From a bacterium BMS3Abin14 (GTDB taxonomy: Bacteria > BMS3Abin14): a DNA stretch of 64,000 nucleotides. The stretch is taken from NCBI GenBank assembly GCA_002897695.1, contig BDTG01000028.1, forward strand, positions 7,329-71,328, written 5' to 3'. Shown one piece after another: positions 9,823 to 49,315 of the stretch. Each line of letters opens with the position of its first letter. Positions within the stretch are counted from its first letter, which is position 1. Both the position numbers and the translations under genes were made by a program. The notes beneath the pieces were generated by a model. The model searched no databases. It was not told the origin of the DNA and was given only the letters and a program-made list of their open reading frames with translations.

Positions 9823-10988
9823 GCCCCAATCCCTTTCCGGACTTTTGGCCTGTGGAAGCAATGGCCGGCAAGGAAGGGGCAGAAAAAGACGAGAGCAATG
9901 ACGGATAAAACGGCGTCGGGCATCCACGCCGCGAATACCGGCGAGAATGCATCACCTGCGGTTAACCTGGAACTGAGGGAAAAGAGGAAGAAACTGATGC
10001 CGAAGAGAACTATGGATGCCAGAAAAGCCGCGGGTTTCCCGTAGCTCCGTGAGGAAATGGCCATGGGGAAGATTATGAAAGGAAAGATCATGATAACCGC
10101 AGGCAGTGAAAACCTCCTGTGGATGGTCATTATCAGCTTTCGCAGTTCCATTGTTCTCCCCTCCGATTTCAGCTCAGGCACCTTTTCGCGCAATTGCCCC
10201 AGGGTAAGGCTGGAATAGAGCTGTTCACTGTTCAGGCCCTCCGCGGATCCATGTTTTTCAATTCGCGTGACAAGGTTGTCGAAAGCTCCGGATATGTACC
10301 CTGGTTCCGGCGCGCTGATCGGCTGAATCGTGCCATGGTGGAGACGGAGTGTTACGTCCCCTCCAAGCACCGTGGGGATCTCGATAATACCGGATTTCGC
10401 CAGGATAATATCCCCCTTGCCCTTTTTCCAGCTTTGCACCATCAGCAAGTGGCCCATTTTTCCGGATGCAGGATCAAAATCATCCACCAGGAGGACGGCG
10501 CCCGGTATACCCCTGAAAAAGGTTCCCGGTTTTAATTCACTCAGTACCCTTTGTCTTGCTATTTCCAGCAGGCTGTCGTTATAGGCCCTGAAACTCATGG
10601 GGGAGATGTAGATTGAAAGGCTTGCCAGGAGAAGAAATATGCACGAGGCCGAAAAAACAAAGGGAACGAAGACGGAGAGCGGGGAGACCCCGGCGTAATA
10701 GATCGAGGTCAATTCCTGGTCCTGCTTCATCTGTCCGATGGTCGCGATCATCGCCATGAGAAATGCCAGTGGGAGGCTGTAGGTCAGCATCTCCGGCAAG
10801 AGGAGGGAAAAGGTCGTCATGAACTGGCTGAAGCTGTTCATCTGGGGGGCGATCTCATTGACCTGTCTTGAGGCCTGATCCATCAGGAAAAGAGCAGTAA
10901 AGATACCGGCGCCAGCCGAGAAGTGGCTGATGAATTTGAGCATGATGTACTTCTGGATCTTAAGCGCCATGAGATGAAAGCCCCGCAC
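9819..10988 (-). CDS. lptF: LPS export ABC permease LptF
   Basis: YjgP/YjgQ family with an N-terminal TM bundle and periplasmic domain. Paired with lptG. Confidence 0.8.
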   Translation of the reverse strand: MRGFHLMALKIQKYIMLKFISHFSAGAGIFTALFLMDQASRQVNEIAPQMNSFSQFMTTFSLLLPEMLTYSLPLAFLMAMIATIGQMKQDQELTSIYYAGVSPLSVFVPFVFSASCIFLLLASLSIYISPMSFRAYNDSLLEIARQRVLSELKPGTFFRGIPGAVLLVDDFDPASGKMGHLLMVQSWKKGKGDIILAKSGIIEIPTVLGGDVTLRLHHGTIQPISAPEPGYISGAFDNLVTRIEKHGSAEGLNSEQLYSSLTLGQLREKVPELKSEGRTMELRKLIMTIHRRFSLPAVIMIFPFIIFPMAISSRSYGKPAAFLASIVLFGISFFLFSLSSRLTAGDAFSPVFAAWMPDAVLSVIALVFFCPFLAGHCFHRPKVRKGIGA

Positions 10989-11261
10989 TGTCTGGAGTTG
11001 AATGAATACAGCTATAGCATAGAATGGAGTGAGGTGTCGAAGTGTCCGCCGTCGCTCAAGGAGCCATGGCGGACAGGCCGAACTGTGGAGTAAGGGGGTA
11101 AGGGAGTATGGGCGTGTGGGGGTATGGGCGAAGGTGGATCAAACTTGACCTGCCAAGGCTGGGATGGTACTTTGCAATTGCTTGGATTTGCACAATTTTT
11201 CAGCAGTGAATCCATCCCTGTGCATGGAAGAACAGGACGTCGGGCAAGTGGGGTTTTCATG

Positions 11262-11296
11262 ATAGAATACTGTGGGCTCAGGCGGCAGTATTCTAT
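11262..11296. promoter_or_regulatory. 11-bp perfect inverted repeat ATAGAATACTG-N13-CAGTATTCTAT just upstream of the cheW-like start
   Basis: Read directly from the sequence. Ends 14 nt before ATG 11310. Confidence 0.4.
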
Positions 11297-11309
11297 GGGG
11301 TCATCGTAA

Positions 11310-11723
11310 ATGGGCGACAGAGTGGTACTTTTTCGCATCGGAAAAATCCATTTTTCGGTGCCCTTCGAAGCGGTTGGTGAGATCGTGGGCAAGGAGCGTA
11401 TTGTCCACAGGGAAGCCCTTCCCGAGAACGTACCGGCGGGCGAGAATGACATCGAGGAATGGGTGTATGCCCGGGGGGACTGGTTTCCTTTAAACCCCCT
11501 CATTTCCGAACCCGGCCTTCCTGGACGAACACAGGTGATCATTTTGAGGCTCAACGGGAAAGGCAGGGCTTTTTTTGTTGATGAGGTGCTGGGGATTGAG
11601 AATCTGTCGGCGCTGCGGCCGGTTCCCCCTGCGGTATCTCGTTGCACTGACTTTCCCCTGTCGGGGTTTCGTATATGGGAGAGTAAAATCGTTTTCGACC
11701 TTGACCTTTCCAGGCTGATTTAA
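11310..11723 (+). CDS. CheW-like coupling domain protein
   Basis: Single CheW-like domain (...FSVPFEAVGEIV...). Confidence 0.7.
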   Translation: MGDRVVLFRIGKIHFSVPFEAVGEIVGKERIVHREALPENVPAGENDIEEWVYARGDWFPLNPLISEPGLPGRTQVIILRLNGKGRAFFVDEVLGIENLSALRPVPPAVSRCTDFPLSGFRIWESKIVFDLDLSRLI

Positions 11724-11748
11724 TATTCATGGAGCCGGGAGGACCTTC

Positions 11749-12177
11749 ATGACCGACAGTCGCCTCATCTCATTCCATGTGGGTGATTGTGATTTTGCCG
11801 TGCCTCTGAGTGAGATCCGCGAGATCGTCGCCGCTGTCTCTGTGACCCCGGTTCCAGATGGCAGACTTCCTCTGGAAGGGTTGATGGTTTACCGGGGTGG
11901 GCAGGCCCTGCCCGTGTTTTCTCTTTTGGGCGCTCTGGGCAGAGATTCCGAATCGGGCGGGAGCCTTATTGTGGTCTCAGAACTTGGACCTGCCTTTGTC
12001 GGGTTTAGGGTTGAGGGGATCGGAGGGGTTGTCGATGGGGTTCAAGGGGACCGCCTGGATGAGTATCATGGTGAATTGAAAGGCCGGGCCGGCGCCATTG
12101 AAGGGACCTTTGAGTCCGGAGATCGGTCCATGATCGTTCTCAGCCTTTCTGCTGTATTTCAGGAGGTGGTTCGTTGA
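11749..12177 (+). CDS. CheW-like coupling domain protein (second copy)
   Basis: ISFHVGDCDFAVPLSEIREIV... is a CheW fold. Tandem with the previous gene. Confidence 0.7.
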   Translation: MTDSRLISFHVGDCDFAVPLSEIREIVAAVSVTPVPDGRLPLEGLMVYRGGQALPVFSLLGALGRDSESGGSLIVVSELGPAFVGFRVEGIGGVVDGVQGDRLDEYHGELKGRAGAIEGTFESGDRSMIVLSLSAVFQEVVR

Positions 12178-12262
12178 AAAGGTCGCTGTTGCAAAATTCA
12201 CTTGGAGGGAGAGGAACCCCTTATAATTCTCCCTTATTGGGCAGGGGAGGGGAGGACCGCGG

Positions 12263-13576
12263 ATGAAAAAGATCCTGGTAGCTGATGACAGCGTCACTAT
12301 TCAGAAGGTTATTGCCCTTACCTTTGCCGACGAGCCCGTCGATATCCAGTCTGTTGGTTCCGGATCGGATGCCCTGGATAAGATGAGGGACTGGAAGCCC
12401 GATATTGTTCTGGCTGACGTCATCATGCCGCAGGTGAATGGGTATGAACTCTGCCGGGCAGTCAAGGAAAATGAGTCCACCAGGGATATCCCTGTGCTTC
12501 TCCTGGCGGGAACATTTGAGGCTTTCGATGAGGAAGAGGCAAAGGGCGCCGGCGCCGATGGCTTCATCACCAAACCCTTCGAGGCGCTGGAGCTCATTGA
12601 AAAGGTTAATGGGTTAATGGAAAAGGGTGTCCAGGTGGAACCCCCCAGGACCCCTGTTGTGGAGCCTGCTTTTGAACCCGCCCAGAAACCCGTTTTTGAA
12701 CCCGTTCAGGGTGCTGCCGATACTGAACCAGCCCCGGCAACCGTCCCCCCCGTAGAAGAGACCATTTCCGAACCGGATATCTGGGACATCCTCAGCGAGG
12801 CCGATGAGATGGAGCCCGTAAAGCCGCGGGGACCGACGGAGGTGGAGACTGCATCTCCATCTCTCGGACCGCTGGAGGGCTCCGGTGTCGTTGATTTTGG
12901 GAGTTTCGACATCGGGCTTGACAGGGCCGAGGAATCCCATGAAGTCCCGATGGTTCCAACCCCGGATGCAATCCAGCCGCCCGAAATGCCGCCGCCCGTA
13001 ATGCCGCCGCCCGTAATGCCGTCGCCCGTAATGCCGCCGCCCGTAATGCCGTCGCCCGTAATGCCGCCGCCCGTAATGCCGGTTGGTTCTGAAGGCGAAA
13101 GTAAGATTGAACGACGGGAAAAAGACTTCTTCGGATTTGAGACCGGAAGAACGGACTCAGTGTCCCTGGATATCATGGAAGACGCGATCGAGGAAATCAC
13201 CTTCGATGTCGAGGAGCCCGCCCCGTCCGGGGTTCCCGATCCTGACCCATTTAAGGCACAGGAGTCCGTTCCGCTTGAGATACAGGAACCCGCCTCGTTT
13301 AAGGTGCAGGAACCTGCCCCGTTTGAGATACAGGAATCTGTTCCACAGGATGCCGGGAAGGAAGAAACCGCATTCACCGTCCACGAGCCCCTCCCGGATG
13401 GGAGTCATGGGACGGCAGAGGCCGTTTTATCCCAAATTGATGATGCCCAGCTTGAATCCATCATCAGGGAGGCCGTGGAAAAGAAGGTTGAGAAGATTGT
13501 ATGGGAGGTTGTGCCGGAACTCTCAGAGATCCTGATTAGGGAAGCCATCGAGAAAATCAGGGGCGGCAGAGCCTGA
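12263..13576 (+). CDS. response regulator with receiver domain, long Pro-rich disordered linker and conserved C-terminal helix (RomR/FrzS-like architecture)
   Basis: Receiver motifs (VADDS...D54-like ADVIMP...KPF). (PVMPP)n linker. C-terminal LESIIREAVEKKVEKIVWEVVPELSEIL. Confidence 0.7.
   Translation: MKKILVADDSVTIQKVIALTFADEPVDIQSVGSGSDALDKMRDWKPDIVLADVIMPQVNGYELCRAVKENESTRDIPVLLLAGTFEAFDEEEAKGAGADGFITKPFEALELIEKVNGLMEKGVQVEPPRTPVVEPAFEPAQKPVFEPVQGAADTEPAPATVPPVEETISEPDIWDILSEADEMEPVKPRGPTEVETASPSLGPLEGSGVVDFGSFDIGLDRAEESHEVPMVPTPDAIQPPEMPPPVMPPPVMPSPVMPPPVMPSPVMPPPVMPVGSEGESKIERREKDFFGFETGRTDSVSLDIMEDAIEEITFDVEEPAPSGVPDPDPFKAQESVPLEIQEPASFKVQEPAPFEIQESVPQDAGKEETAFTVHEPLPDGSHGTAEAVLSQIDDAQLESIIREAVEKKVEKIVWEVVPELSEILIREAIEKIRGGRA
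12976..13080 (+). repeat. 7 tandem copies of a 15-bp unit (g/tccgcccgtaatgcc) inside the response-regulator CDS, encoding (P-V/E-M-P-P/S)n
   Basis: Perfect or near-perfect head-to-tail copies visible in the sequence. Confidence 0.9.
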
Positions 13577-40689: not shown

Positions 40690-40719
40690 TCAGGCCTGCG
40701 ACGGGGATCAGACGGAGAG

Positions 40720-41510
40720 TTACCTGAACCTTATGTTGTGCTTTTGAACGGCCTTAACCAGATATTCTATCTCGCCGGGATGGAGGATTCCCTTCTTGAC
40801 AAAGAATTCCCCTATGGGCCGCTGGAGCCAACGCTGAAAGCCAAGGACCGCGGAACGCTGGTAGGGAGTCATGTACCCCAGGCGAAGCGCTGAGCCGCCT
40901 ATCCTTTCCCCGAACACTCTTTCCGCTGAGATGATGTGAAGCTCCTCTGAATTAAGAAACTTCCACGTGGCGGCAATATGGCCGAAAGAGGGACGCTGAC
41001 GTCTCTGCCAGGTAATGGCCTTGATAAGGGTTCTCCAGGATATGATCCCGGAGTAGTAAAGGTACTGGCCCAGCAGAAGCCTGTTCTCGGGAACCAGACC
41101 CTGCCAGAAATGGTCATGGGTTTTCCCGCCCGTTTCTGATGCCCTGTTTTCGGCCGGGTCTTCGCGGGGGGTGTTGCGGGGCTGAGGATTCGTCCGGTGA
41201 ACAGTCGTGGATAGGTCCTCCGATGACAGGAAAGCCAGAAGGCTGGAGTAGGCCTGAGTTACTGCTATGAAATGTTCGGCCATCTCATTCTCATCCTTGC
41301 CCTGAATTCTGGCCCTGTCCGGATGAAGCTCCAGAGCCTTTCTCCTGAAGGTGACCTTCAGGCCTGAAGGCCCCAGCGTTCGCAGAAACTCATCGGTCAC
41401 CTCGACATCGGCGCCGAAAAGCACCCTGAATGCCGAAGTGATCTCCCGGGTATTTAACGCGGTATTCAAGGACCAGAACCTCCCTAAGTCTCCAGCTACA
41501 AACAGAAGAA
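40720..41510 (-). CDS. J-domain (DnaJ-like, HPD motif) protein with uncharacterised C-terminal domain; start uncertain
   Basis: KVTFRRKALELHPDRA J-domain core. The upstream part of ORF 40720..41919 looks non-coding (repeat-rich), so a later TTG/GTG start is assumed. Confidence 0.5.
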
Positions 41511-41587: not shown

Positions 41588-41768
41588 GTCTTGAACGTGG
41601 TCCAATGTCCAATGTCCAACGGGGAAAAGCCGGATGTGGTGACACGGAGACACGGAGAAAAACGAAGAGGGGGGATAAGAGCAGGCGGTGGGCTCGATTT
41701 AACAGGGATGAAGGGGATGAAAACAGGCGATGGGCAGTAAGAGCAAGTTTGTAGTTTGAGGCTTGAGG
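41588..41768. repeat. left imperfect inverted repeat of the island (core GTCTTGAACGTGgtccaATGTCCAATGTCCAACGGGGAAAAG plus second block GCAAGTTTGtAGTTTGAGG)
   Basis: The reverse complement of 49249-49315 aligns (AACGTG...ATGTCCAAyGTCCAACGGGGAA..GCAAGTTTGAGGTTTGAGG). Local micro-tandem repeats (gacacggag x2, atcgaaga x3). Confidence 0.75.
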
Positions 41769-41867
41769 TTAAAATCTGGCACTGAAACCTTGGTGAAACA
41801 GACATGGGAGCAAGGGAGTAAGGGCGTATCGAAGCATCGAAGAATCGAAGAATCTCAAACTCGCCTA

Positions 41868-42360
41868 TATTATGTGACAATTGTCTTGTCCGGTTCGACG
41901 TGGTATGCCTCGATCCCAAAAACGACTTTTAAAAAGGGAGACTTTTGGTGTCGGGCAAGCCCATTAATGTCATTATCGGGGACGGGGAAAATCCCTCGTC
42001 TTTAGGTGAAGGGAAGGATGTGATAACATAATTATGTCAGATATCGATTGAACGTGAGATAGAGATCCTGTCGGGTAAAGTTGGCAGCGACCATGTTCAC
42101 GTTTTTATATCCTGTCGTCCGAGTCATAATATCAGTGTATCAGTCAGGTAGTGCAATGGTTGAAGGGAATCAGTTTCCGGGTGCTTCTTTAAGGAGTTTC
42201 CCCACTTGCGCAAGCAATTTTGGGGTCGTCATTTTTGGGCTCGCGGCTATCTTGCTGTTTCCTCCGGTACCATCACAGATGAGATGATCCAGGAGTATAT
42301 TGAAGAGCAAGAAGGGGAGCCGATTCATGATGACAGTCAATTTCCAGTTGACAACCCTTA
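41868..42360 (+). pseudogene. IS200/IS605-family TnpA (Y1 HuH transposase) remnant in three frames with an in-frame TGA
   Basis: Fragments YIM*QLSCPVRR..., ...EIEILSGKVGSDHVHVFISCRPSHNISV... (HuH) and ...QFWGRHFWARGYLAVSSGTITDEMIQEYIEEQ... are colinear with IS200 TnpA but frameshifted. Confidence 0.75.
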
Positions 42361-42391
42361 AACCCATCGCCTTTTAGGCGAGGAGTATCCA

Positions 42392-42637
42392 GTGGAGTCG
42401 AGGCTGCGGACAAACATGCCTCCAGTGAAAGCGAGCTTTCTTGCTATGACTCAAAACCATGCGAAAGATAACAATCAAATGCAGGCCTCGTTTGCGACTT
42501 TACTGAGTGGGGCGGCTGAGGCCCTTGCAAATTATCTTGACAGGCTATTGCCTTCACTTCTTGATAACTGGTGGAAAAATGCTGTGGTGGACAAGCTGTC
42601 TTTTCAGCAACACCGCGGATCAAACAGAAAGGAATAG
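42392..42637 (+). pseudogene. HEPN-related ORF fragment (frame 2), partial duplicate of the downstream HEPN N-terminus
   Basis: LLPSLLDNWWKNAVVDKLS parallels LLRVLDQNWYQISMKMNLS in the next frame. Confidence 0.35.
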
Positions 42638-43041
42638 TCCACCTCTCATCATTGGATCTTGCTGCCTTGCTTCGGGTGTTGGATCAGAACTGGTACCAGA
42701 TTTCAATGAAGATGAATCTATCCCCGGAAGTTCGCCATTTTGTTAAAGAAATGCAGACAGTTCGCAATCGGTGGGCGCACGCCGGCAGTGAAGGATTTCC
42801 GGTCGACGATGTATACCGTGACTTGGACACCCTGCAACGTTTTGCCACAGTCATTGAGGCGGACGAAGCTCTGCTTCAAGAAGTACGGTGGAGGGTGAGA
42901 CGCAGACATACTACGCATCGCAACTCAAAGCTGAAGACCGGCAGGAAGCCGAGTCCCGATTCTTGCCGTGCGAGGAATTTCATTCCTACCTCACCGCGCT
43001 GCAAATTCGATATCCGGGACTCTCCACGCTCTATTCCTTGA
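42571..43041 (+). pseudogene. Swt1/sacsin-type HEPN domain ORF (R-N-x3-H motif RNRWAH), frameshifted into the SNF2 helicase gene
   Basis: HEPN Rx4-6H motif and helical pattern. The last 50 codons are Arg-rich out-of-frame translation of the helicase 5' region. Frame 0 has a stop at 42855. Confidence 0.5.
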
Positions 43042-45851
43042 ATGCCGCACGAGCCGATTTTATCCCCTATCAGTTCCGGCCCGTCTTGCGGTTTATCAGA
43101 TCAGACCGTCCTCGATTGCTGGTCGCCGATGGCGTGGGCGTCGGCAAGACAATCGAAGCGGGTCTGATTCTCCGAGAACTGCAGGCACGACGAGATATAC
43201 GCTCGATCCTCATCATATGCCCTCGCCCTCTTGTTACCGAGCGTAAGTGGCAGATTGAGATGAAGCGGTTTGAAGAGCGTTTTATTCATCTTGACGGTGG
43301 GACGCTCAGGTATTGCATAAACGAAATGGATTTGGAAGGAACCTGGCCAGAGCAGCACCAGCGAGTCATCATCCCATATTCCTTATTCGACGAAGTCCTT
43401 CTCTATGGCTCGGGCTCTGACGGCAAACGAAAGTGCAAAAAGGGGTTGTTGGATTTGGACCCACCCCCTCGCTTCGATCTGGTTATCGTGGATGAGGCGC
43501 ACCACATCCGGAATCAGGATACGTTCAGCCACAAAGCCGTGCGGTTTTTCTGTGACCATGCGGAAGCCGTGGTCTTTCTGACAGCGACGCCGATTCAACT
43601 TGGCAGCCATGACCTCTTTGTTTTGCTGAACACCCTCCGCCCCGACCTTATTATCGACCAAGAGAGCTTTGAGCACATGTCAGAGCCGAATCCGTTTATA
43701 AACCAAGCGGTCGCATTGGCGCGTGCCCAGGAACCGGACTGGACGACCCAGGCCAATGAAGCTCTCGATCAGGCTGCTGGGACACCCTGGGGACAATCGA
43801 TTCTTAAACATAATCCTGAATTCAACCGCATACATACTCTAATTTCGAAAGGCAAAATCGGATTGGAGGAGCGTGTACAGCTGATTACCGACCTCGAGGC
43901 GTTACATACCTTCTCCGGGATAATCAATCGAACGCGACGCCGCGATATCGGGGAGTTCACGATCCGAAATCCGGAAACCGTGGTTGTTGAATTTACCCCC
44001 CCCCAAAAAGAGCTTCATGACGAACTGATTCAAGTCCAGGCGGAGATATTCAGCAGACTTCATGGGGATGTTAACGTCAAGTTCATGATGACAACAATTA
44101 GACGTCAGGCTGCGAGCTGCCTTTTCGGCCTCGCCCCTTTCCTTGACGAAATTCTCAACCGGCATCTTGATGAATTATCATGGGAGGAGGCCGACAACAC
44201 CGAACCAGTTCCACAAAGCGACATCATCGATAGCATCGAATCACGAATTAAAACCATCCTTGAGAAGGCGCGTGCTCTCGATCCGAATGACCCCAAGCTT
44301 GACGCTCTCCGTAAAGTCATAAGAGACAAGCAGGGTCTGCCAAACAACAAAGTGATGCTTTTTAGCAGTTTTCGGCACACGCTTCACTATCTCTATGAAC
44401 ATCTGAACGCAGATAGTTTTCGGGTTGGAATGATTCATGGCGGCACACCTGACGAGGACCGTGTCGATCTTCGTAACCGCTTTGAGATGCAGCGAGATCA
44501 GGATAACGGTCTCGACGTTCTTCTGTTTTCCGAGATCGGTTGTGAAGGCTTGGACTACCAGTTCTGTGATTGCATTGTGAACTATGACCTGCCCTGGAAT
44601 CCGATGCGGATTGAGCAGAGAATAGGACGAATTGACCGCTGGGGGCAGAAAAGTGAAAAGGTGGCTATCTTCAATATGATTACGCCAGGGACTGTGGACG
44701 CGGACATCTATGAACGCTGTCTGGTTCGCATAGGAGTGTTCAATAATGCCCTGGGCGGTAGTGAAGAGATACTTGGTGAAATCAGTCGAGAAATTCGTAA
44801 TATTGCGGATAACTTCTCTCTGAGTGAAGCTGAGCGCGGAGAGCAGTTCCAACAATTAGCGGACAATAAGATCAGGCTAATACAAGAACAGGATGACCTC
44901 GAGCAGAAACAACTTGAGCTATTCGGCATCCGTCTTCCTCAAGACCAAATGAAGCGGGAAATCGAACAGGCGTCGAGTTTCTGGCTGTCTCCCTCTTCAA
45001 TACGAAGGCTCATAACGATTTACCTTCAGCGGGTTTGCGGAAAGGAACAGGAGTTCATACTCGGCGAGAAAGCACTGAAAACGCTTCGGCTTTCGCAAGA
45101 ATCAAGGAGTAGTGTACTACGGGATTTTCAAAGACTACCCCGCCAGAACACGTCCGCGTATCGAGAATGGGAAAACTGGTTGAAGGGTGGCAACCCTCAT
45201 CTTCTAATGACCTTCGAGTCCGAGTGCGCTTCGCACCACCCTGAGGCCGTTTTCATTATGCCCCTCCATCCCTTGGTAAAACAGGCGGCCATGGCATTCG
45301 ATGCCAGAAAGCGCGTATTTACAGCCCTGAAGGTTAACAGCAATGATGTCCCGAAAGGCAGATACGAATTCGCCATCTTCCAATGGCAGTTCCATGGCGT
45401 TAGGGAGGATTTGGTCTTGCGGCCTGTTGCTTCCTCGGACGTGGTGACCGAACACCTTCCAGGTCTTGTTGAGAAAGCGGAAGGAGATCCCACTGGAAGG
45501 ATCGACGTCGCAGATCCCGCCATTTGGGATGGTCTGGATGCGCAGCATCACAGGCTGTGGTCTGAAGCACGCAAAAACCATCAACGAAAGACCCAGGAAC
45601 TGGCTGAATACCGGAGGGAGAGTTTGACAACGAGCCACAGAGCCCGGATCTCACTTCTTGAAGAACAACTGGGTCAAGCGAGTAATGACAAAATCAGGCG
45701 GATGCGCCAAGCTCAAATTGCAGCGGCTGAAGCGGATTACGCGCGTCGCATTCAAGAATTGGATATTGCTATGGAACGGGCCGATATTACCGCCCAACCG
45801 GTGGCGTATGGGGTAATCCACATCGATGGAGGGTTGTCGGATGCCGAGTGA
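42888..45851 (+). CDS. SNF2/Rad54-family superfamily-2 helicase (DEAH), about 350-aa C-terminal region of unknown function
   Basis: Motif I DGVGVGKT, II VIVDEAHHIRN, III FLTATPIQ, V LFSEIGCEGLDY, VI QRIGRIDRWGQ. GTG start; possibly originally fused to the upstream HEPN. Confidence 0.85.
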   Translation: MEGETQTYYASQLKAEDRQEAESRFLPCEEFHSYLTALQIRYPGLSTLYSLNAARADFIPYQFRPVLRFIRSDRPRLLVADGVGVGKTIEAGLILRELQARRDIRSILIICPRPLVTERKWQIEMKRFEERFIHLDGGTLRYCINEMDLEGTWPEQHQRVIIPYSLFDEVLLYGSGSDGKRKCKKGLLDLDPPPRFDLVIVDEAHHIRNQDTFSHKAVRFFCDHAEAVVFLTATPIQLGSHDLFVLLNTLRPDLIIDQESFEHMSEPNPFINQAVALARAQEPDWTTQANEALDQAAGTPWGQSILKHNPEFNRIHTLISKGKIGLEERVQLITDLEALHTFSGIINRTRRRDIGEFTIRNPETVVVEFTPPQKELHDELIQVQAEIFSRLHGDVNVKFMMTTIRRQAASCLFGLAPFLDEILNRHLDELSWEEADNTEPVPQSDIIDSIESRIKTILEKARALDPNDPKLDALRKVIRDKQGLPNNKVMLFSSFRHTLHYLYEHLNADSFRVGMIHGGTPDEDRVDLRNRFEMQRDQDNGLDVLLFSEIGCEGLDYQFCDCIVNYDLPWNPMRIEQRIGRIDRWGQKSEKVAIFNMITPGTVDADIYERCLVRIGVFNNALGGSEEILGEISREIRNIADNFSLSEAERGEQFQQLADNKIRLIQEQDDLEQKQLELFGIRLPQDQMKREIEQASSFWLSPSSIRRLITIYLQRVCGKEQEFILGEKALKTLRLSQESRSSVLRDFQRLPRQNTSAYREWENWLKGGNPHLLMTFESECASHHPEAVFIMPLHPLVKQAAMAFDARKRVFTALKVNSNDVPKGRYEFAIFQWQFHGVREDLVLRPVASSDVVTEHLPGLVEKAEGDPTGRIDVADPAIWDGLDAQHHRLWSEARKNHQRKTQELAEYRRESLTTSHRARISLLEEQLGQASNDKIRRMRQAQIAAAEADYARRIQELDIAMERADITAQPVAYGVIHIDGGLSDAE

Positions 45852-48800
45852 CTACGAACAGATTTGCAAGGATAATATTCGCCGTCGTGGTGAGGAATTT
45901 GACGACATAGGTCAGCTCATATCAGAACAACTCCACAGTGATCGCACACATTTTATCTACGAGCTTCTTCAAAACGCTGAAGATGCACTAGGGCGTCGCA
46001 AGCGAAACAATCCAGAAAGTGAATTGCCCACCAACGTTAAGTTTCTTCTCTATAAAGATAGAATGGAATTTAGACACTTCGGGGAAAACTTTAACATAGA
46101 AGATGTAAAAGGCATTTCAAACGTTCTTAAAGGCACCAAGTCCGAAGATAAGACTCAAATTGGAAAATTTGGCATAGGATTTAAGTCAGTATATGCATTT
46201 ACTTCAACACCAGAAATTCACTCTGGAGCCGAACATTTTATTATCGAACGATATATTCGACCTCGAAGCGCTGATAAATTTCCACAAATAGCCAGCGGAG
46301 AGACAACCTTTGTTTTCCCCTTCAATCATAAAGACCTTTCAAAAGAACAAGCATTTCAGCTCATAGAAGAGAAGCTGAAAAAGATTGGTTCCCGCATCTT
46401 ACTTTTCCTGGGTAACATAACGGAAATTAAATGGAAAATTGAAGACCAAGATGAAGGACTATATCTTAAAGAATCAAAACAGCAAGGCCAGTTCGCCCAA
46501 AAGGTTACTGTGATAGGACAGCACGGAAATGAAAATGAAGAAGAGGAGTGGCTTGTTTTCAGACGACAGATTGAGGCTGGGAATTCATCTTTTGAGAGTT
46601 TTGTTGAAGTAGCATTCAGATTAAAAAATGATGTAAAATTAGAAAGAGAAATTATACAGAAAATTGAATCTTCTCCATTGATTGTTTATTTCCCCACAAA
46701 ACTTGAGACGCGTTTTGGTTTTTTTGTTCATGGTCCTTATGACACTACTGCTTCGCGTTCGGACATTGAAAATAACGAATGGAATAGAAGACTAATCATC
46801 GAAACGGCAGATCTTTTAACCGAAATAGTCTTGCCTTGGTTAAAGGAAAATAGGTTATTAACTCCCAGTTTTCTTGAGGCTCTACCAATCAGACTCGATG
46901 TATTTCCACAAGATAGCTTATTTCGGCCAATATATGAAAAGGTGCGGGGTGCACTAAGAAATCAAGATTTTCTTCCGACAACAGATGGTAATTACGTTGC
47001 CGGGAAGCGTGCAGTGCTCGCTCGCGCTGAAGACCTTGTGAACTTAATGAGCTCGGAACAACTTTCCTTCCTATTAAGCAAATCGATAAAATTAGAATGG
47101 CTTACAACAGATATAACGGAAAATAAAAAAGATATCCATCGATATTTAGTTGGTTGGAAGCCAGGCTACTACGATACTGGAGAGGAGACAGAATCACTTA
47201 TTGTTGCTGAGATTCGCCCACAAGATTTAATTGAAAAACTTACGTCTGATTTCCTAGAGGCGCAAAGTATCACCTGGCTACTTAAATTTTATGCTTTTTG
47301 TGAAAAACGCCCCACACTTATTGACAAGTTAAAAAATAAACCTGTTGTTCGTCTCGAAGAAGGTCCTTATGTTATTCCATTCAAGCAAGACGGTTCTCCT
47401 AATGCTTACTTGCCACCTGAAAACGATACAGAGTTTCCAGTGGTGTCCAGAAAAATATCTAAAGATGAAAAGGCGCTTGAATTCCTCAAGAAATTAGGGC
47501 TCACAAAGCCTGATGCAGTTGCTGAAGTGATAGAACATGTTCTTCCCAAATACAGGCAATCTAATCCTGATATCTCAGATGATGAACATCGCCAGGACAT
47601 AAAAAAAATCCTAAAGGCTTACGAAACTGACTCTCAAAAAAAGAAGAGAAGACTGATAGAACAGTTACAGGCAACGGAGTTTATTTTTACGGAAACACCC
47701 GGCATAGAAACGACCAGTTTCAGAAGGCCAATTGACGCGTATTTCTGGAGTAATGAGTTGGAAGCATACTTTTCTGGCAGCAACACAGTTGGTTTCGTTA
47801 GGCCAGAATTTTATAATCAGTCCGTCTTGGCGGTTTTCGAAGATCTGGGAGTCACTGATAAGATACGAATACGATGTAAGTCAAAAAATGGTTCAGTGGA
47901 TTACATGCAGCTTGAATATAAGAATTGGCATAGGCGTGGGCTAAGAGGTTTTGATCCAGATATTCAAATAGACGGAATCCAATATGCCATAAAGAATCCA
48001 TCAGGTGAAAAGAGCAAAATCATTTGGAACGAAGTAGCGGTAAAGTACAGTCATTGCATTAAGGGCAAAATTATAAGATCAAGCCGGCAAGATTTTTCAC
48101 TGAATGCAAGCGTCTACGAAGAAGAGGAATTAACGTCAAATTTTGGCCGATTATTGATGGACACCCCTTGGCTGCCAGATAAGCAAGACAACTTTCATAA
48201 ACCCGCTGAACTCAAGCTCGACGATCTACCGGAATCATTTGTTCGTGATGAAAAACCGGTCAACCAGTTAGGTATGAAGAAAGATGTTGTCGCTAAACTT
48301 GCGGAAGAAGCAGGTATTTCATTAGATAATATCGAAAAGGCCAAGAAAATTGCTGAAGCCTCTCCAGAAGTCAAAGAACAAATTGACTTATTGCTCTCTA
48401 ATTCCAACGAAAAACAGCCGGAATTCCCCCGAAAAGCCTCATCGAATGTTGACCGCCGCAGAAAAAAAACAACTGAAAAATACCATAAGGCACCCAAAAA
48501 GAAATATGAAAAGAAACCTTACAGTAAAAAGGTTACTGAAAATACTATAGATCCCAAAATTTGGCTGAGAGAAACATATACGAACAAAGAAAGGCAGATG
48601 ATTTGCCAAATATGCCAGAATGAAATGCCCTTCAAAAAGAAGGATAGCCAGTATTATTTTGAAGCCGTCGAATTATTGAATGATTTTGATCGCGAGATGG
48701 AAGAGTTTTATATTGCCCTGTGCCCCCTATGTGCGGCTATGTATAACGAATTTGTGAAACATGACAAAGGTGCCATGGAGCCTTTGAAAAACGCGTTGAT

Positions 48801-48912
48801 AAATTCGGACGACGCTGAAGTCCCGCTGCAGCTTGGAGAGCTGGACACAAGTGTCCGGTTTGTCGAGACCCATTATCACGATATACAGACTATTCTCGAG
48901 GAGCGAAAATAA
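45841..48912 (+). CDS. sacsin/Hsp90-like GHKL ATPase domain protein (1028 aa) with C-terminal CxxC-N35-CxxC zinc ribbon
   Basis: N-box IYELLQNAEDA and G2-box IGKFGIGFKSVYAF at the N-terminus. Long mixed middle region. C-terminal CQICQN...CPLCAAMY. Start overlaps the helicase stop (ATGccgagTGA). Confidence 0.8.
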   Translation: MPSDYEQICKDNIRRRGEEFDDIGQLISEQLHSDRTHFIYELLQNAEDALGRRKRNNPESELPTNVKFLLYKDRMEFRHFGENFNIEDVKGISNVLKGTKSEDKTQIGKFGIGFKSVYAFTSTPEIHSGAEHFIIERYIRPRSADKFPQIASGETTFVFPFNHKDLSKEQAFQLIEEKLKKIGSRILLFLGNITEIKWKIEDQDEGLYLKESKQQGQFAQKVTVIGQHGNENEEEEWLVFRRQIEAGNSSFESFVEVAFRLKNDVKLEREIIQKIESSPLIVYFPTKLETRFGFFVHGPYDTTASRSDIENNEWNRRLIIETADLLTEIVLPWLKENRLLTPSFLEALPIRLDVFPQDSLFRPIYEKVRGALRNQDFLPTTDGNYVAGKRAVLARAEDLVNLMSSEQLSFLLSKSIKLEWLTTDITENKKDIHRYLVGWKPGYYDTGEETESLIVAEIRPQDLIEKLTSDFLEAQSITWLLKFYAFCEKRPTLIDKLKNKPVVRLEEGPYVIPFKQDGSPNAYLPPENDTEFPVVSRKISKDEKALEFLKKLGLTKPDAVAEVIEHVLPKYRQSNPDISDDEHRQDIKKILKAYETDSQKKKRRLIEQLQATEFIFTETPGIETTSFRRPIDAYFWSNELEAYFSGSNTVGFVRPEFYNQSVLAVFEDLGVTDKIRIRCKSKNGSVDYMQLEYKNWHRRGLRGFDPDIQIDGIQYAIKNPSGEKSKIIWNEVAVKYSHCIKGKIIRSSRQDFSLNASVYEEEELTSNFGRLLMDTPWLPDKQDNFHKPAELKLDDLPESFVRDEKPVNQLGMKKDVVAKLAEEAGISLDNIEKAKKIAEASPEVKEQIDLLLSNSNEKQPEFPRKASSNVDRRRKKTTEKYHKAPKKKYEKKPYSKKVTENTIDPKIWLRETYTNKERQMICQICQNEMPFKKKDSQYYFEAVELLNDFDREMEEFYIALCPLCAAMYNEFVKHDKGAMEPLKNALINSDDAEVPLQLGELDTSVRFVETHYHDIQTILEERK

Positions 48913-49248
48913 GTTCGCTCGGTGGCCATTGCGAGCAATTCTCTACATGCGTAGGCCTAATTTTACTGCCAGATATCAAGCGAAGACTGAGGCAATTGTT
49001 CGGGCCGGAACGGCTTCAAGACAGGGTGAGTCATGATGTTTGAAGCCGCGTCGGGCCTATGCAGCTCCCCCCAAATGAAAGATCAAGAGGCTCGGCGGAA
49101 TCTGGAACCCGAGACGAAAGCTTCGAGGAAGCCCTTGTGTCAGAGACAGTTAAGGCAATGGGACGTGTATGGGAGCATTGAGGTAACGAAGTGTTATCTA
49201 TGTCCTGAACTAAAAGTGTTGCCCCTGTCCTGATTGCTCCCCCGCATC

Positions 49249-49315
49249 CCTCAAACCTCAAACTTGCCCTTCCCCGTTGGACGTTGGACATTCTTTCTCA
49301 CGTTGAACGTTGGAC
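49249..49315. repeat. right imperfect inverted repeat of the island
   Basis: Reverse complement matches 41588-41629 and 41743-41768. Confidence 0.75.

What the first reader, a model, noticed from the sequence alone, without database searches (positions are those of the whole stretch)
41588..49315. AT-rich 7.7-kb island bounded by long imperfect inverted repeats carrying a HEPN / SNF2 helicase / sacsin-like GHKL ATPase module: candidate uncharacterised defence system
Between the korDABC block and a two-component operon lies a segment visibly poorer in G+C than its neighbours (e.g. gaaaataaaaaagatatccatcgatatttag). Its ends are inverted copies of one another: 41588-41629 is AACGTGgtccaATGTCCAATGTCCAACGGGGAAAAG, and the reverse complement of 49249-49315 is AACGTGagaaagaATGTCCAACGTCCAACGGGGAAGGG followed by GCAAGTTTGAGGTTTGAGG, which matches 41743-41768. 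Inside, in order:
- a decayed IS200/IS605 tnpA;
- Swt1/sacsin-type HEPN fragments;
- a 987-aa SNF2/Rad54-type DEAH helicase with all motifs intact;
- a translationally coupled 1028-aa protein (start ATG overlaps the helicase stop) whose N-terminus carries the sacsin/Hsp90 GHKL signature (IYELLQNAEDA ... IGKFGIGFKSVYAF) and whose C-terminus is a CxxC-N35-CxxC zinc ribbon.

A helicase plus a GHKL ATPase plus a HEPN RNase module is the logic of several anti-phage systems (DISARM, Zorya, MORC-containing R-M-like islands). This exact combination does not correspond to any experimentally characterised system I recognise.
Basis: partly seen in the sequence, partly recalled or inferred. Interest (0 to 1): 0.9.

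Follow-up and report, generated by a model that had tools for sequence, protein, structure and literature searches.

The report
Broken Tiamat-like helicase–ATPase defence module
The 7.7-kb segment is a strain-specific insertion carrying a partly decayed copy of a widespread but untested two-gene candidate anti-phage module: a HEPN–SNF2 helicase followed by a Tiamat-like Hsp90/sacsin-type ATPase; its "terminal inverted repeats" are a common intergenic heptad-repeat element, not transposon ends.

Summary
The sequence features are real, but the interpretation needs three corrections.

1. **Not without relatives.** The 1028-aa ATPase matches PADLOC TmtA (Tiamat) at 3e-67, but only over the first ~800 model positions. 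It lacks Tiamat's C-terminal NOV_C/DUF3883 nuclease-type domain and has a conserved zinc ribbon instead. The helicase is DrmD/RapA-like (2e-115).

2. **A conserved pair.** In 38 of 39 genome loci, zinc-ribbon-type ATPases have this SNF2 helicase directly upstream. None of 27 NOV_C/short-type relatives do. In about half the pairs the helicase carries an N-terminal Swt1-like HEPN domain. Neighbouring genes are rich in defence genes. I found no paper or PADLOC system model describing the pair.

3. **The window's copy is damaged.** Compared with intact 1200–1240-aa fusions, HEPN has a frameshift. A ~68-codon out-of-frame deletion removes a β-rich N-terminal segment present in every family helicase examined. 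A truncated IS200 transposase remnant lies just upstream.

The island is absent from two ~85%-identical relatives. Near-identical strain contigs carry different alleles left of a sharp breakpoint inside the ATPase gene.

The inverted repeats are GTCCAAY/RTTGGAC heptad arrays. Such arrays occur as compact inverted pairs in more than 120 metagenome contigs.

Verdict: a new variant of a known kind, of moderate interest.

The parts
41591..49299 (.). Segment with no blastn-alignable counterpart in the closest island-free relative. It replaces 510 nt in L089 and about 9 nt in L095.
   Evidence: blastn of L089 against the window stops at 41590 and resumes at 49300. In L095 the two flanks are joined directly. 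GC is 46.2% against 54.5% and 55.8% in the flanks.
41594..41629 (+). Left repeat arm: AACGTG + (GTCCAAY)x3 + GGGGAA.
   Evidence: A diverged counterpart (AACGTCCAA) is present in island-free L089.
41743..41768 (+). Second repeat block, GCAAGTTTGTAGTTTGAGGCTTGAGG (heptad-like). It is inverted relative to 49249-49271 and lies 112 nt further in than on the right side.
42041..42361 (+). Decayed, N-terminally truncated IS200/IS605 TnpA (Y1 transposase) remnant with frameshifts and stops.
   Evidence: Three-frame translations. The stitched peptide matches Pfam Y1_Tnp positions 38-121 of 121, E 1.2e-25.
42377..42631 (+). N-terminal part of the Swt1-like HEPN domain (first frame).
   Evidence: tblastn of the intact L002 fusion: query residues 15-99, 74% identity.
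42601..42888 (+). C-terminal part of the Swt1-like HEPN domain with the RNRWAH (Rx4H) motif, in a second frame. A 1-nt frameshift lies near 42617-42622.
   Evidence: Pfam PF18731, 2.3e-15. tblastn HSP to L002 query residues 90-185.
42886..42890 (+). Junction of an out-of-frame deletion of about 68 codons. It removes the linker and the β-rich N-terminal segment that all examined family helicases carry before the SNF2 core.
   Evidence: L002 query residues 186-253 have no counterpart, and the next HSP is in a third frame. The segment is present in all 10 N-termini examined. N-terminal extensions are at least 36 aa in every complete helicase ORF.
42888..45851 (+). 987-aa SNF2/RapA/DrmD-like helicase ORF, the 5'-truncated remainder of a HEPN-SNF2 fusion gene.
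   Evidence: PADLOC DrmD PDLC02623, 2e-115. Pfam SNF2-rel_dom and Helicase_C. NCBIfam DISARM_DrmD scores 303 bits against a cut-off of 610.
45841..48912 (+). TmtA-like Hsp90/sacsin-type GHKL ATPase with a C-terminal zinc ribbon. The ORF could start at 45826; homologues start at MPSDY = 45841. It overlaps the helicase 3' end by 11 nt.
   Evidence: PADLOC TmtA, 3e-67, over model positions 27-808 of 1302. Pfam SACS and NCBIfam P_loop_sacsin. AF2 model pLDDT 84, and Foldseek best hits are full-length Hsp90/TRAP1. Cysteines at 927, 930, 966 and 969 are conserved.
48138..48138 (.). Allele breakpoint inside the ATPase gene (about aa 771). To the right, contigs L085 and L088 are 99.8-99.9% identical to the window. 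To the left they carry different alleles.
   Evidence: The L088 ATPase (P0023) is about 55% identical overall, but its C-terminal part is near-identical.
49250..49315 (-). Right repeat arm: CCTCAAA heptads, TTCCCC, (GTTGGAC)x2, and a further TTGAAC/TTGGAC heptad pair.
   Evidence: It can be aligned, with gaps, to the native heptad unit of island-free L089.

Best explanation
The segment is a laterally acquired, population-variable insertion in the divergent intergenic region between a DnaJ-domain gene and a DUF4390-ntrYX-like operon. Its cargo is one copy of a widespread two-gene module.

**Gene 1** is an SNF2 (RapA/DrmD-like) helicase with a β-rich N-terminal segment found in all family members examined. 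In about half of the family it also carries an N-terminal Swt1-type HEPN domain, a predicted RNase.

**Gene 2** is a paralogue of Tiamat's TmtA and overlaps gene 1, which suggests translational coupling. It has an Hsp90/sacsin-type GHKL ATPase plus middle domain. A Cys4 zinc ribbon replaces TmtA's PD-(D/E)XK (NOV_C/DUF3883) domain.

**Inferred mechanism for intact members (not shown):** the two proteins form a complex. The GHKL protein acts as an ATP-driven clamp or sensor on nucleic acid, and the SNF2 motor translocates on DNA. Recognition of foreign DNA unleashes the HEPN domain, or another effector in HEPN-less variants. The effector thus sits in trans on the helicase rather than in cis on TmtA.

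**In this window the module is decaying.** HEPN is frameshifted, and a ~68-codon out-of-frame deletion has removed the β-rich segment. An IS200 remnant sits at the 5' end. At most an N-terminally truncated helicase and an orphan ATPase could be made.

**The flanking inverted repeats** are the two arms of a common intergenic heptad-palindrome element, not transposon termini.
For: **Homology:**

**Pairing rule:** 38 of 39 zinc-ribbon-type ATPase loci have the helicase directly upstream, against 0 of 27 NOV_C/short-type loci. NOV_C is present in stand-alone relatives. The pair is conserved down to 25% identity on a Rhizobium plasmid.

**Intact fusions:** 1200-1242-aa fusions occur in L002-4 and L090.

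**Damage in the window:**

**Defence context:** Vsr, Mrr-helicase, MORC-type ATPase, SLFN, PLD and MZB genes are neighbours. 127 ORFs flanking the pair in 16 genomes hit 220 PADLOC families at 1e-10. 43 housekeeping ORFs of the window hit 3.

**Insertion and turnover:** the island is absent in L089 and L095, and alleles are replaced left of 48138 in L085 and L088.

**Repeats:**. There is a precedent for paired tandem hepta/octanucleotide arrays in Geobacter (PMC2700814).
Against: - No member of the pair family has been tested, so the defence function rests on homology to TmtA/DrmD and on gene neighbourhood.
- ATP binding and RNase activity are inferred from motifs only.
- The helicase ORF has stayed open for 987 codons and the ATPase gene is intact. 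Decay is therefore recent, or the remainder still does something.
- The flank-enrichment measure counts PADLOC families, many of which are redundant. It does not count genes.
- L085 and L088 start inside the island, so their linkage to the left flank is unverified.
- The 1-nt frameshift could in principle be an assembly error. The 204-nt deletion could not.
Confidence: 0.7

Rival explanations
1. One reading: an intact, wholly uncharacterised HEPN + SNF2 + GHKL defence system carried on a mobile island delimited by terminal inverted repeats.
For: The inverted repeats are real and sit at the edges of the segment that is missing in L089. GC is lower. No paper describes the pair.
Against: - HEPN is frameshifted and the helicase 5' part is deleted.
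- TmtA and DrmD homology is strong.
- The repeat arms are generic heptad arrays, present without any island in L089 and L093 and in more than 120 metagenome contigs.
- There is no functional transposase or integrase and no tRNA.
- None of 84 other loci carrying a homologue of the ATPase has the motif.
Confidence: 0.07
2. The remaining 987-aa helicase, translated from the internal GTG at 42888, together with the ATPase still works as a HEPN-less version of the system. This would resemble the natural HEPN-less subtypes.
For: Eighteen of 38 paired loci lack a detectable HEPN. Both long ORFs are uninterrupted and the helicase motifs are intact. The stop/start overlap is preserved.
Against: Every complete natural helicase ORF keeps at least 36 residues upstream of the point where the window ORF begins, and all 10 N-termini examined, HEPN-less ones included, keep the β-rich segment that is deleted here. 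There is no obvious Shine-Dalgarno sequence before the GTG (read directly). An IS200 remnant occupies the upstream region.
Confidence: 0.15
3. The pair is not immunity but a DNA/chromatin-maintenance or repair module: an Hsp90-like chaperone plus a RapA-like remodeller.
For: Best structural matches are Hsp90-family chaperones. The helicase also matches RapA (NCBIfam, 2.7e-49).
Against: - The pair is patchily distributed across phyla and absent in close relatives.
- Alleles are swapped within one species.
- It is embedded among defence genes.
- It is fused to a HEPN toxin-type domain and homologous to an experimentally named defence gene family.
- Scores are far below the RapA cut-off (168 against 576 bits).
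Confidence: 0.06

Closest known systems
Tiamat (TmtA), a single-gene anti-phage system. Millman et al. 2022 is cited from memory; the PADLOC TmtA models were tested here; bioRxiv 10.1101/2024.10.26.620412 lists it as a single gene with a PD-(D/E)XK domain.
   Same: About 800 N-terminal residues are homologous: the sacsin/Hsp90-type GHKL plus the long middle region. PADLOC E-value is 3e-67 over model positions 27-808 of 1302. The same Pfam SACS signature is found in stand-alone relatives.
   Different: There is no NOV_C/DUF3883 PD-(D/E)XK domain; a conserved Cys4 zinc ribbon takes its place. It is never stand-alone: it is obligatorily paired with an SNF2 helicase (38 of 39 against 0 of 27). The mechanism of Tiamat itself is unknown (PMC12926258).
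DISARM DrmD and ARMADA ArmA (RapA-like SNF2 helicases of multi-gene defence systems).
   Same: The helicase gives full-length-type matches to PADLOC DrmD (2e-115) and NCBIfam DISARM_DrmD (4e-90). The PADLOC model also covers the β-rich N-terminal segment in the intact L002 fusion.
   Different: The score is below the NCBIfam cut-off (303 against 610 bits). There is no DrmA/DrmB (DUF1998), DrmC or methyltransferase in the island. The partner is a GHKL ATPase, which DISARM and ARMADA lack (PMC13463889). HEPN fusion is not a DrmD feature.
Prokaryotic MORC/paraMORC GHKL ATPases linked to SF-II (including SWI2/SNF2) helicases and nucleases in R-M-like operons (Iyer, Abhiman & Aravind 2008, PMC2292703).
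   Same: The logic is the same: a GHKL ATPase, an SNF2 helicase and a nuclease-type effector in laterally mobile operons sitting in hotspots.
   Different: The GHKL here is of the Hsp90/sacsin type, not MORC (Pfam SACS; Foldseek best hits Hsp90/TRAP1). There is no methylase or DNase gene; the effector domain is a HEPN (RNase-type). The 2008 paper does not mention sacsin-like proteins (0 occurrences).
Eukaryotic sacsin (Hsp90-like repeats plus a C-terminal HEPN domain in one protein).
   Same: The only PDB sequence relatives of the ATPase N-domain are sacsin SR1 and Hsp90. A sacsin-type GHKL and a HEPN domain also co-occur in this operon.
   Different: Here the HEPN is of the Swt1 family, whereas sacsin's is HEPN-T (PMC3710099). 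It sits on the helicase, not on the ATPase. The 2013 HEPN census does not list this operon.
Paired inverted arrays of tandem hepta/octanucleotide repeats, annotated as putative global-regulator sites in Geobacter metallireducens (Aklujkar et al. 2009, PMC2700814).
   Same: The architecture of the "terminal repeats" is the same: 3-5 tandem heptads on one strand facing 3-5 on the other, intergenic, with variable spacing.
   Different: The heptad sequence differs (GTCCAAY against MTYCTGA / GTTGCTYN). Here the arms are 7.6 kb apart because the island lies between them. The function of either set is unknown.

Membership tests
Tiamat (TmtA) | N-terminal sacsin/Hsp90-type ATPase region homologous to TmtA | tested here: met
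   Seven PADLOC TmtA models match, the best at 3.1e-67. Pfam SACS 2.4e-13 and NCBIfam P_loop_sacsin 1.9e-21.
Tiamat (TmtA) | C-terminal PD-(D/E)XK nuclease-type domain (NOV_C / DUF3883) | tested here: not met
   There is no PF13020 hit. TmtA models are matched only up to position ~808 of 1302. Stand-alone relatives L084, L054 and L058 do have NOV_C and match the TmtA C-terminal ends.
Tiamat (TmtA) | Acts as a single-gene system | tested here: not met
   38 of 39 zinc-ribbon-type homologues have an SNF2 helicase directly upstream, mostly with overlapping or near-abutting (up to ~23 nt) reading frames.
Tiamat (TmtA) | Experimentally shown phage protection | not testable with these tools
   Needs cloning and phage challenge.
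DISARM | DrmD-type SNF2 helicase at equivalog level | tested here: inconclusive
   PADLOC DrmD 2e-115, but NCBIfam DISARM_DrmD scores 303 bits against a cut-off of 610.
DISARM | Core DrmA helicase plus DrmB (DUF1998), a DrmC PLD and a methyltransferase in the same locus | tested here: not met
   The island holds only the IS200 remnant, HEPN fragments, the helicase and the ATPase. The flanks are kor genes, a DnaJ-domain gene and a DUF4390-ntrYX-like operon.
MORC/paraMORC-SNF2 R-M-like systems | GHKL of the MORC/paraMORC type (HATPase_c_3 plus an S5 fold) | tested here: not met
   Pfam gives SACS only. Foldseek's top hits are Hsp90/TRAP1/GRP94 N+M domains, E 3e-11.
MORC/paraMORC-SNF2 R-M-like systems | Operon link between a GHKL ATPase and an SF-II/SNF2 helicase plus a nuclease-type domain | tested here: met
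   This is a resemblance in logic, not family membership.
Transposon / IS-bounded mobile element | Functional transposase or integrase inside | tested here: not met
   Only a truncated, frameshifted Y1_Tnp remnant is present. There is no tRNA.
Transposon / IS-bounded mobile element | Terminal inverted repeats specific to the element and travelling with it | tested here: not met
   The motif is absent from 84 other loci carrying a homologue of the ATPase. The same heptad arrays occur without the module in L089 and L093 and in more than 120 metagenome contigs.
Transposon / IS-bounded mobile element | Target-site duplication | tested here: inconclusive
   TTGAACGT occurs at 41591-41598 and 49303-49310. 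It is itself part of the TTGAAC/TTGGAC heptad repeats, so it is uninformative.
HEPN (Swt1-like) RNase domain | Rx4-6H motif and a full-length domain in one reading frame | tested here: not met
   The RNRWAH motif is present, but the domain is split between two frames and separated from the helicase by an out-of-frame deletion.

The most novel reading that the evidence does not exclude
Intact members of this family may form an unrecognised, widespread two-gene anti-phage system, in effect a "two-component Tiamat". A TmtA-like GHKL zinc-ribbon sensor would control a DNA-translocating SNF2 motor. That motor would carry exchangeable N-terminal domains, possibly effectors: HEPN_Swt1, or instead DUF4926 or RHH. 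Some variants have an extra ~200-aa protein encoded between the two genes. If so, it would give a handle on how Tiamat and sacsin-type ATPases sense infection.
Probability: 0.45. Interest if true: 0.6.

Novelty: new variant of a known kind. Interest (0 to 1): 0.45.

Why it matters
- **Mechanism of Tiamat.** Tiamat is a named defence system with no known mechanism. This family shows that its sensor/ATPase body exists in a second, common configuration. There the nuclease-type domain is replaced by a zinc ribbon, and an SNF2 helicase, often with a HEPN domain, is recruited in trans. This natural domain swap suggests which part of TmtA is the effector and which is the sensor or motor, and it gives testable constructs.
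- **Annotation.** Tools may label such loci "DrmD" or "Tiamat" when neither definition is met.
- **Population biology.** Near-identical strain contigs carrying different alleles, with a breakpoint inside the ATPase gene, illustrate rapid turnover of defence genes.
- **This window.** For this particular window the practical message is negative.

Tried and rejected
- **Exact-protein look-up** of the window ATPase: not on record.
- **Literature searches** found no description of the pair. Terms tried: Tiamat/TmtA, sacsin-like plus defence, HEPN_Swt1/PF18731, sacsin plus anti-phage. The 2013 HEPN census and the 2008 MORC paper do not list it. ARMADA was checked and rejected because it has no GHKL.
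- **PDB searches** by sequence and by profile returned only sacsin SR1 and Hsp90 N-domains. No bacterial TmtA-like structure was found.
- **Plasmid and phage collections:** 17 plasmid records and 1 phage record, mostly distant, with uninformative annotation.
- **Rfam, tRNA and promoter/terminator scans** of the island found nothing that explains the repeats. Promoter-like hexamers lie just outside each arm, but these are consensus matches only.
- **REP/RAYT idea.** I considered that the IS200-like remnant is a REP-associated transposase and the arms its REPs. No Y1 transposase homologue occurs in 80 contigs carrying the heptad arrays, so I did not adopt this.
- **Sigma-54 promoters near the arms:** the spacing does not fit the GG-N10-GC rule (read); dropped.
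- **Pfam scan of the ~200-240-aa genes** lying between helicase and ATPase in some variants: no significant family.

Full report

Mostly yes.
- **Repeats.** The repeat finder returns two inverted pairs at the edges of the stated interval: 41604-41626 / 49270-49292 (23 nt, 96% complementary) and 41739-41768 / 49242-49271 (30 nt, 80%). The core ATGTCCAAYGTCCAACG occurs only at these two ends of the 64-kb window, and no shuffle out of 100 gives as many matches.
- **ORFs.** The ORFs are as described: a 987-aa ORF at 42888-45851 and a 1028-aa ORF at 45826-48912.
- **Domains.** Pfam finds SNF2-rel_dom and Helicase_C in the first ORF and the sacsin domain in the second. It finds HEPN_Swt1 in a short upstream ORF.
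- **IS200.** A translation stitched across three frames matches the IS200 Y1 transposase model from position 38 to 121 of 121, so that gene is truncated and broken.
- **Zinc ribbon.** In 68 homologues C927 and C966 are invariant and C930 and C969 are conserved in at least 90%.
- **GC caveat.** The island is 46.2% GC against 54.5% and 55.8% for the flanks. The ATPase gene alone accounts for this (39.8%, GC3 36%). The helicase, at 51.4% (GC3 56%), is near the flanks. In seven other loci the ATPase gene is also 3-9 points below its partner helicase, so low GC is a property of this gene family rather than of "the island".

**2. It is a real insertion, and the site is variable.**

- The right flank encodes a DUF4390 protein, an NtrY-like kinase and a sigma-54 activator. 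The left flank encodes kor genes and a DnaJ-domain gene on the minus strand.
- A relative about 85% identical in DNA (L089) has the same flanks but no island. Homology to the window stops at 41590 and resumes at 49300, and 510 nt stand in place of 7.7 kb.
- A second relative (L095) joins the two flanks with only about 9 nt between them.
- Four contigs from other samples are 99.8-99.95% identical to the window to the right of the island. Two of them (L085, L088) extend leftwards into it. They are near-identical only as far as 48138, inside the ATPase gene, and beyond that they carry different alleles. The L088 ATPase (P0023) is about 55% identical overall, but its last ~250 residues are almost the same as the window's.
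- This looks like allele replacement by recombination within one species. The caveat is that L085 and L088 begin inside the island, so their left-hand linkage is unseen.
- The window itself is unlikely to be a chimera, because both of its flanks are syntenic with L089 and L095.

**3. What the two large genes are.**

- **PADLOC hits.** The helicase matches DrmD (2e-115). The ATPase matches TmtA, the single protein of Tiamat, at 3e-67, but only over model positions 27-808 of 1302.
- **Family size.** The ATPase has more than 3,000 database homologues, many of them full-length at 45-82% identity.
- **Two classes.** A scan of one genome per species returned 80 loci from many phyla. I compared them with tblastn.
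  - Where the match runs to the zinc-ribbon C-terminus, 38 of 39 loci with enough upstream sequence have the SNF2 helicase directly upstream. In most of these the reading frames overlap or lie within ~23 nt of each other.
  - Where the match stops near residue 830-880, 0 of 27 have a helicase.
- **The second class is Tiamat proper.** Three second-class proteins examined (1043-1102 aa) carry the NOV_C/DUF3883 domain and hit TmtA models at both ends. A 2024 preprint lists Tiamat as a single gene with a PD-(D/E)XK domain. A fourth second-class ORF (L048, 823 aa) showed no NOV_C hit.
- **Conclusion.** The window's protein is therefore a TmtA paralogue in which the nuclease-type domain is replaced by a zinc ribbon, and which always comes with a helicase. 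The pair is kept even at 25% identity on a Rhizobium plasmid, next to another defence-type system.

**4. The helicase partner and its variable N-terminus.**

- In L002-L004, L090 and many genome loci the upstream gene is one ORF of about 1170-1240 residues. It runs HEPN_Swt1, then a linker, then a β-rich segment (consensus F..GQIV.LKSDP...GAVV...PG..E.RY.VF..G....YYASQL), then the SNF2 core.
- HEPN is detectable in 20 of the 38 paired loci.
- Others have DUF4926, a ribbon-helix-helix, or nothing before the β-rich segment.
- Several variants have an extra gene of about 200-240 codons, with no Pfam match, between helicase and ATPase.
- The β-rich segment is present in all 10 N-termini examined. 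Every complete helicase ORF extends at least 36 residues upstream of the point where the window ORF begins.

**5. The window's copy is damaged.**

- tblastn of the intact L002 fusion against the window gives three HSPs in three different frames:
  - residues 15-99 at 42377-42631;
  - residues 90-185 at 42601-42888;
  - residues 254 onwards from 42888.
- Residues 186-253, which hold the linker and the β-rich segment, have no counterpart.
- So there is a 1-nt frameshift inside HEPN (about 42617-42622, not in a homopolymer run) and an out-of-frame deletion of about 68 codons at about 42886-42890.
- The "987-aa helicase" is what remains downstream, opened by a GTG with no evident ribosome-binding site (read).
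- The IS200 remnant ends 16 nt before the HEPN homology begins.
- The neighbouring housekeeping genes are intact; the kinase, for example, is 100% identical to database entries. Random assembly error is therefore an unlikely explanation, and a 204-nt deletion cannot be one.

**6. Structure.**

- An AlphaFold2 model built from 68 sequences has mean pLDDT 84.
- Foldseek against the PDB gives full-length Hsp90-family chaperones (HSP90B, TRAP1, Hsc82, GRP94; E down to 3e-11) and sacsin SR1.
- Sequence and profile searches of the PDB find only sacsin and Hsp90 N-domains.
- Thus the N-terminal half is an Hsp90/sacsin-type GHKL plus middle domain, not a MORC type. No structure of a bacterial relative turned up in these searches.

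**7. Evidence for a defence role (inference).**

- Neighbours of the pair include Vsr, an Mrr-helicase, a MORC-type ATPase, Schlafen/AlbA, PLD and MZB genes, and an ABC-three-component system.
- As a rough measure, 127 ORFs flanking the pair in 16 genomes match 220 PADLOC families at E ≤ 1e-10. These include DpdF, type III methylase, PsyrT, HmaA, PD-T4-6 and several PDC candidates.
- By contrast, 43 housekeeping ORFs of this window match 3 families, all through one sigma-54 activator. The measure counts redundant models, so it is qualitative.
- Patchy phyletic distribution, absence from close relatives and allele swapping point the same way.
- No experiment exists for any member of the pair family, as far as the searchable literature shows.

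**8. Likely mechanism.**

*Shown:*
- homology of the parts;
- obligatory pairing;
- overlapping reading frames;
- conserved catalytic-type motifs (E46 and N50 of ELLQNAEDA, the GxxGxG-type loop, helicase motifs, Rx4H);
- the conserved zinc ribbon.

*Inferred:*
- The two proteins act as a complex. The GHKL protein is an ATP-driven clamp or sensor, with the zinc ribbon contacting nucleic acid, and the SNF2 motor tracks along DNA.
- An effector is released on sensing foreign DNA: HEPN where present (predicted RNase, possibly leading to abortive infection).
- Single-gene Tiamat would do the same with a cis-fused PD-(D/E)XK domain.
- In this window the HEPN-helicase gene is disrupted, so the system is most probably inactive. 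At most a truncated helicase and an orphan ATPase remain.

**9. The inverted repeats.**

- The arms are arrays of the heptad GTCCAAY (left) and RTTGGAC (right).
- Island-free L089 has its own TTGGAC/TTGAAC/CTCTGGA heptad units at the same place and a single AACGTCCAA on the left. Both window arms can be aligned to these with gaps.
- A more distant relative with a different left neighbour (L093) has GGTCCAATGTCCAACGTCCAATGTC about 130 nt upstream of the same operon's promoter region.
By my own estimate from the 20-nt pattern and a rough size for the collection, chance would give only a handful.
- Many of these contigs carry compact inverted pairs: 3-5 heptads, 15-90 nt of spacer, then 3-5 heptads on the other strand. 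They are often just upstream of a start codon, and one contig has several pairs.
- None of 84 other loci carrying a homologue of the ATPase has the motif.
- No Y1 transposase homologue lies in the 80 heptad-bearing contigs fetched.
- Paired inverted arrays of tandem hepta/octanucleotide repeats were catalogued as putative regulator sites in Geobacter metallireducens (PMC2700814).
- Promoter-like hexamers face outwards just beyond each arm (consensus matches only).
- I conclude that the arms belong to a common intergenic heptad-palindrome element, and the island lies between them. They are not termini of a transposon. How the island got there is not resolved.

**10. Comparison with known systems, and verdict.**

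- **Tiamat:** the N-terminal body is shared. The defining nuclease-type domain and single-gene status are not met.
- **DISARM/ARMADA:** the helicase is of a related type, but it scores below the curated cut-off and none of the other components is present.
- **MORC/paraMORC-SNF2 R-M-like operons:** the logic is the same, but the GHKL family differs and there is no methylase.
- **Sacsin:** it shares the ATPase type and the co-occurrence with HEPN, but the HEPN family differs and sits on another protein.

The family is best called a new variant of a known kind: a helicase-paired, nuclease-less relative of Tiamat. It is widespread and untested, which makes intact members reasonable candidates for experiment. 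The copy in this window is a decaying one, and the "IR-bounded island" framing does not hold.

Interest: moderate.

Noticed in passing
window 41600-41620 and 49275-49315; L099 944-1012; L101 326-421; L122 5795-5874; L123 6517-6600; L150 1882-2002; L163 3577-3684; L173 2367-2496; L161 (three pairs); L093 5004-5023: There is a widespread intergenic element made of 3-5 tandem GTCCAAN heptads facing 3-5 NTTGGAC heptads across a 15-90-nt spacer. It occurs in more than 120 metagenome contigs, often just upstream of a start codon. It has no Rfam match, and no Y1 transposase homologue was found in the 80 fetched contigs. Its nature is unknown: possibly a regulator site, or REP-like.
   Followed up: partly
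window 48138; L085 1-1616; L088 81-2329: There is a sharp identity breakpoint inside the ATPase gene. Contigs 99.8-99.9% identical to the right carry different helicase/ATPase-N alleles to the left. Two other contigs of the same species (L086, L087) begin within 300 nt of this point. This is consistent with population-level allele turnover by recombination.
   Followed up: partly
L005 8901-9509; L007 9329-9970; L008 9352-9969; L009 9354-10004; L018 9270-9986; L027 9326-9967: In one subtype an extra gene of about 200-240 codons sits between the helicase and the ATPase. Its N-terminal half looks predicted coiled-coil-like and its C-terminal part is conserved. It has no Pfam hit, and the one tested (L007) has no PADLOC hit. 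It may be a third component.
   Followed up: partly
L007 5952-6290; L078 6517-7020: In HEPN-less variants the helicase carries other N-terminal add-ons before the β-rich segment: DUF4926 (9.6e-27) in L007 and a weak ribbon-helix-helix match in L078. This suggests an exchangeable N-terminal module.
   Followed up: partly
L029 6127-9138 and 10001-13087; L021 2901-6053 (minus strand) and 10001-13069: Some loci carry two divergent copies (26-27% and 36-37% identity to the window protein) of the sacsin-type ATPase next to one helicase.
   Followed up: no
window 45826-48912 compared with 42888-45851; L002, L007, L010, L015, L017, L038, L090: The ATPase gene is 3-9 GC points below its partner helicase in all seven other loci checked (11.6 points here). 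This is a family-wide compositional offset that remains unexplained.
   Followed up: partly
window 40690-40752 compared with L089 6890-7889 and L095 5329-6066: Both island-free relatives have a 245-aa gene of unknown function between the POR gamma gene and the DnaJ-domain gene. The window has only 63 nt there, so this is a second indel difference close to the island.
   Followed up: no
window 48913-49249: A 337-nt non-coding stretch (52% GC) lies between the ATPase stop and the right repeat arm. It has an 18-nt-stem inverted repeat at 49002-49019 / 49040-49057. It has no T-tail and no Rfam match, and its function is unknown.
   Followed up: no
L002 11270-14992; L001 12991-13635: In the two closest metagenome contexts a large AAA_19/AAA_30/UvrD_C_2 helicase gene (1240 aa in L002, a fragment in L001) follows the ATPase gene. 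It is absent from the window. I did not check whether it is a linked component or just a neighbour.
   Followed up: no
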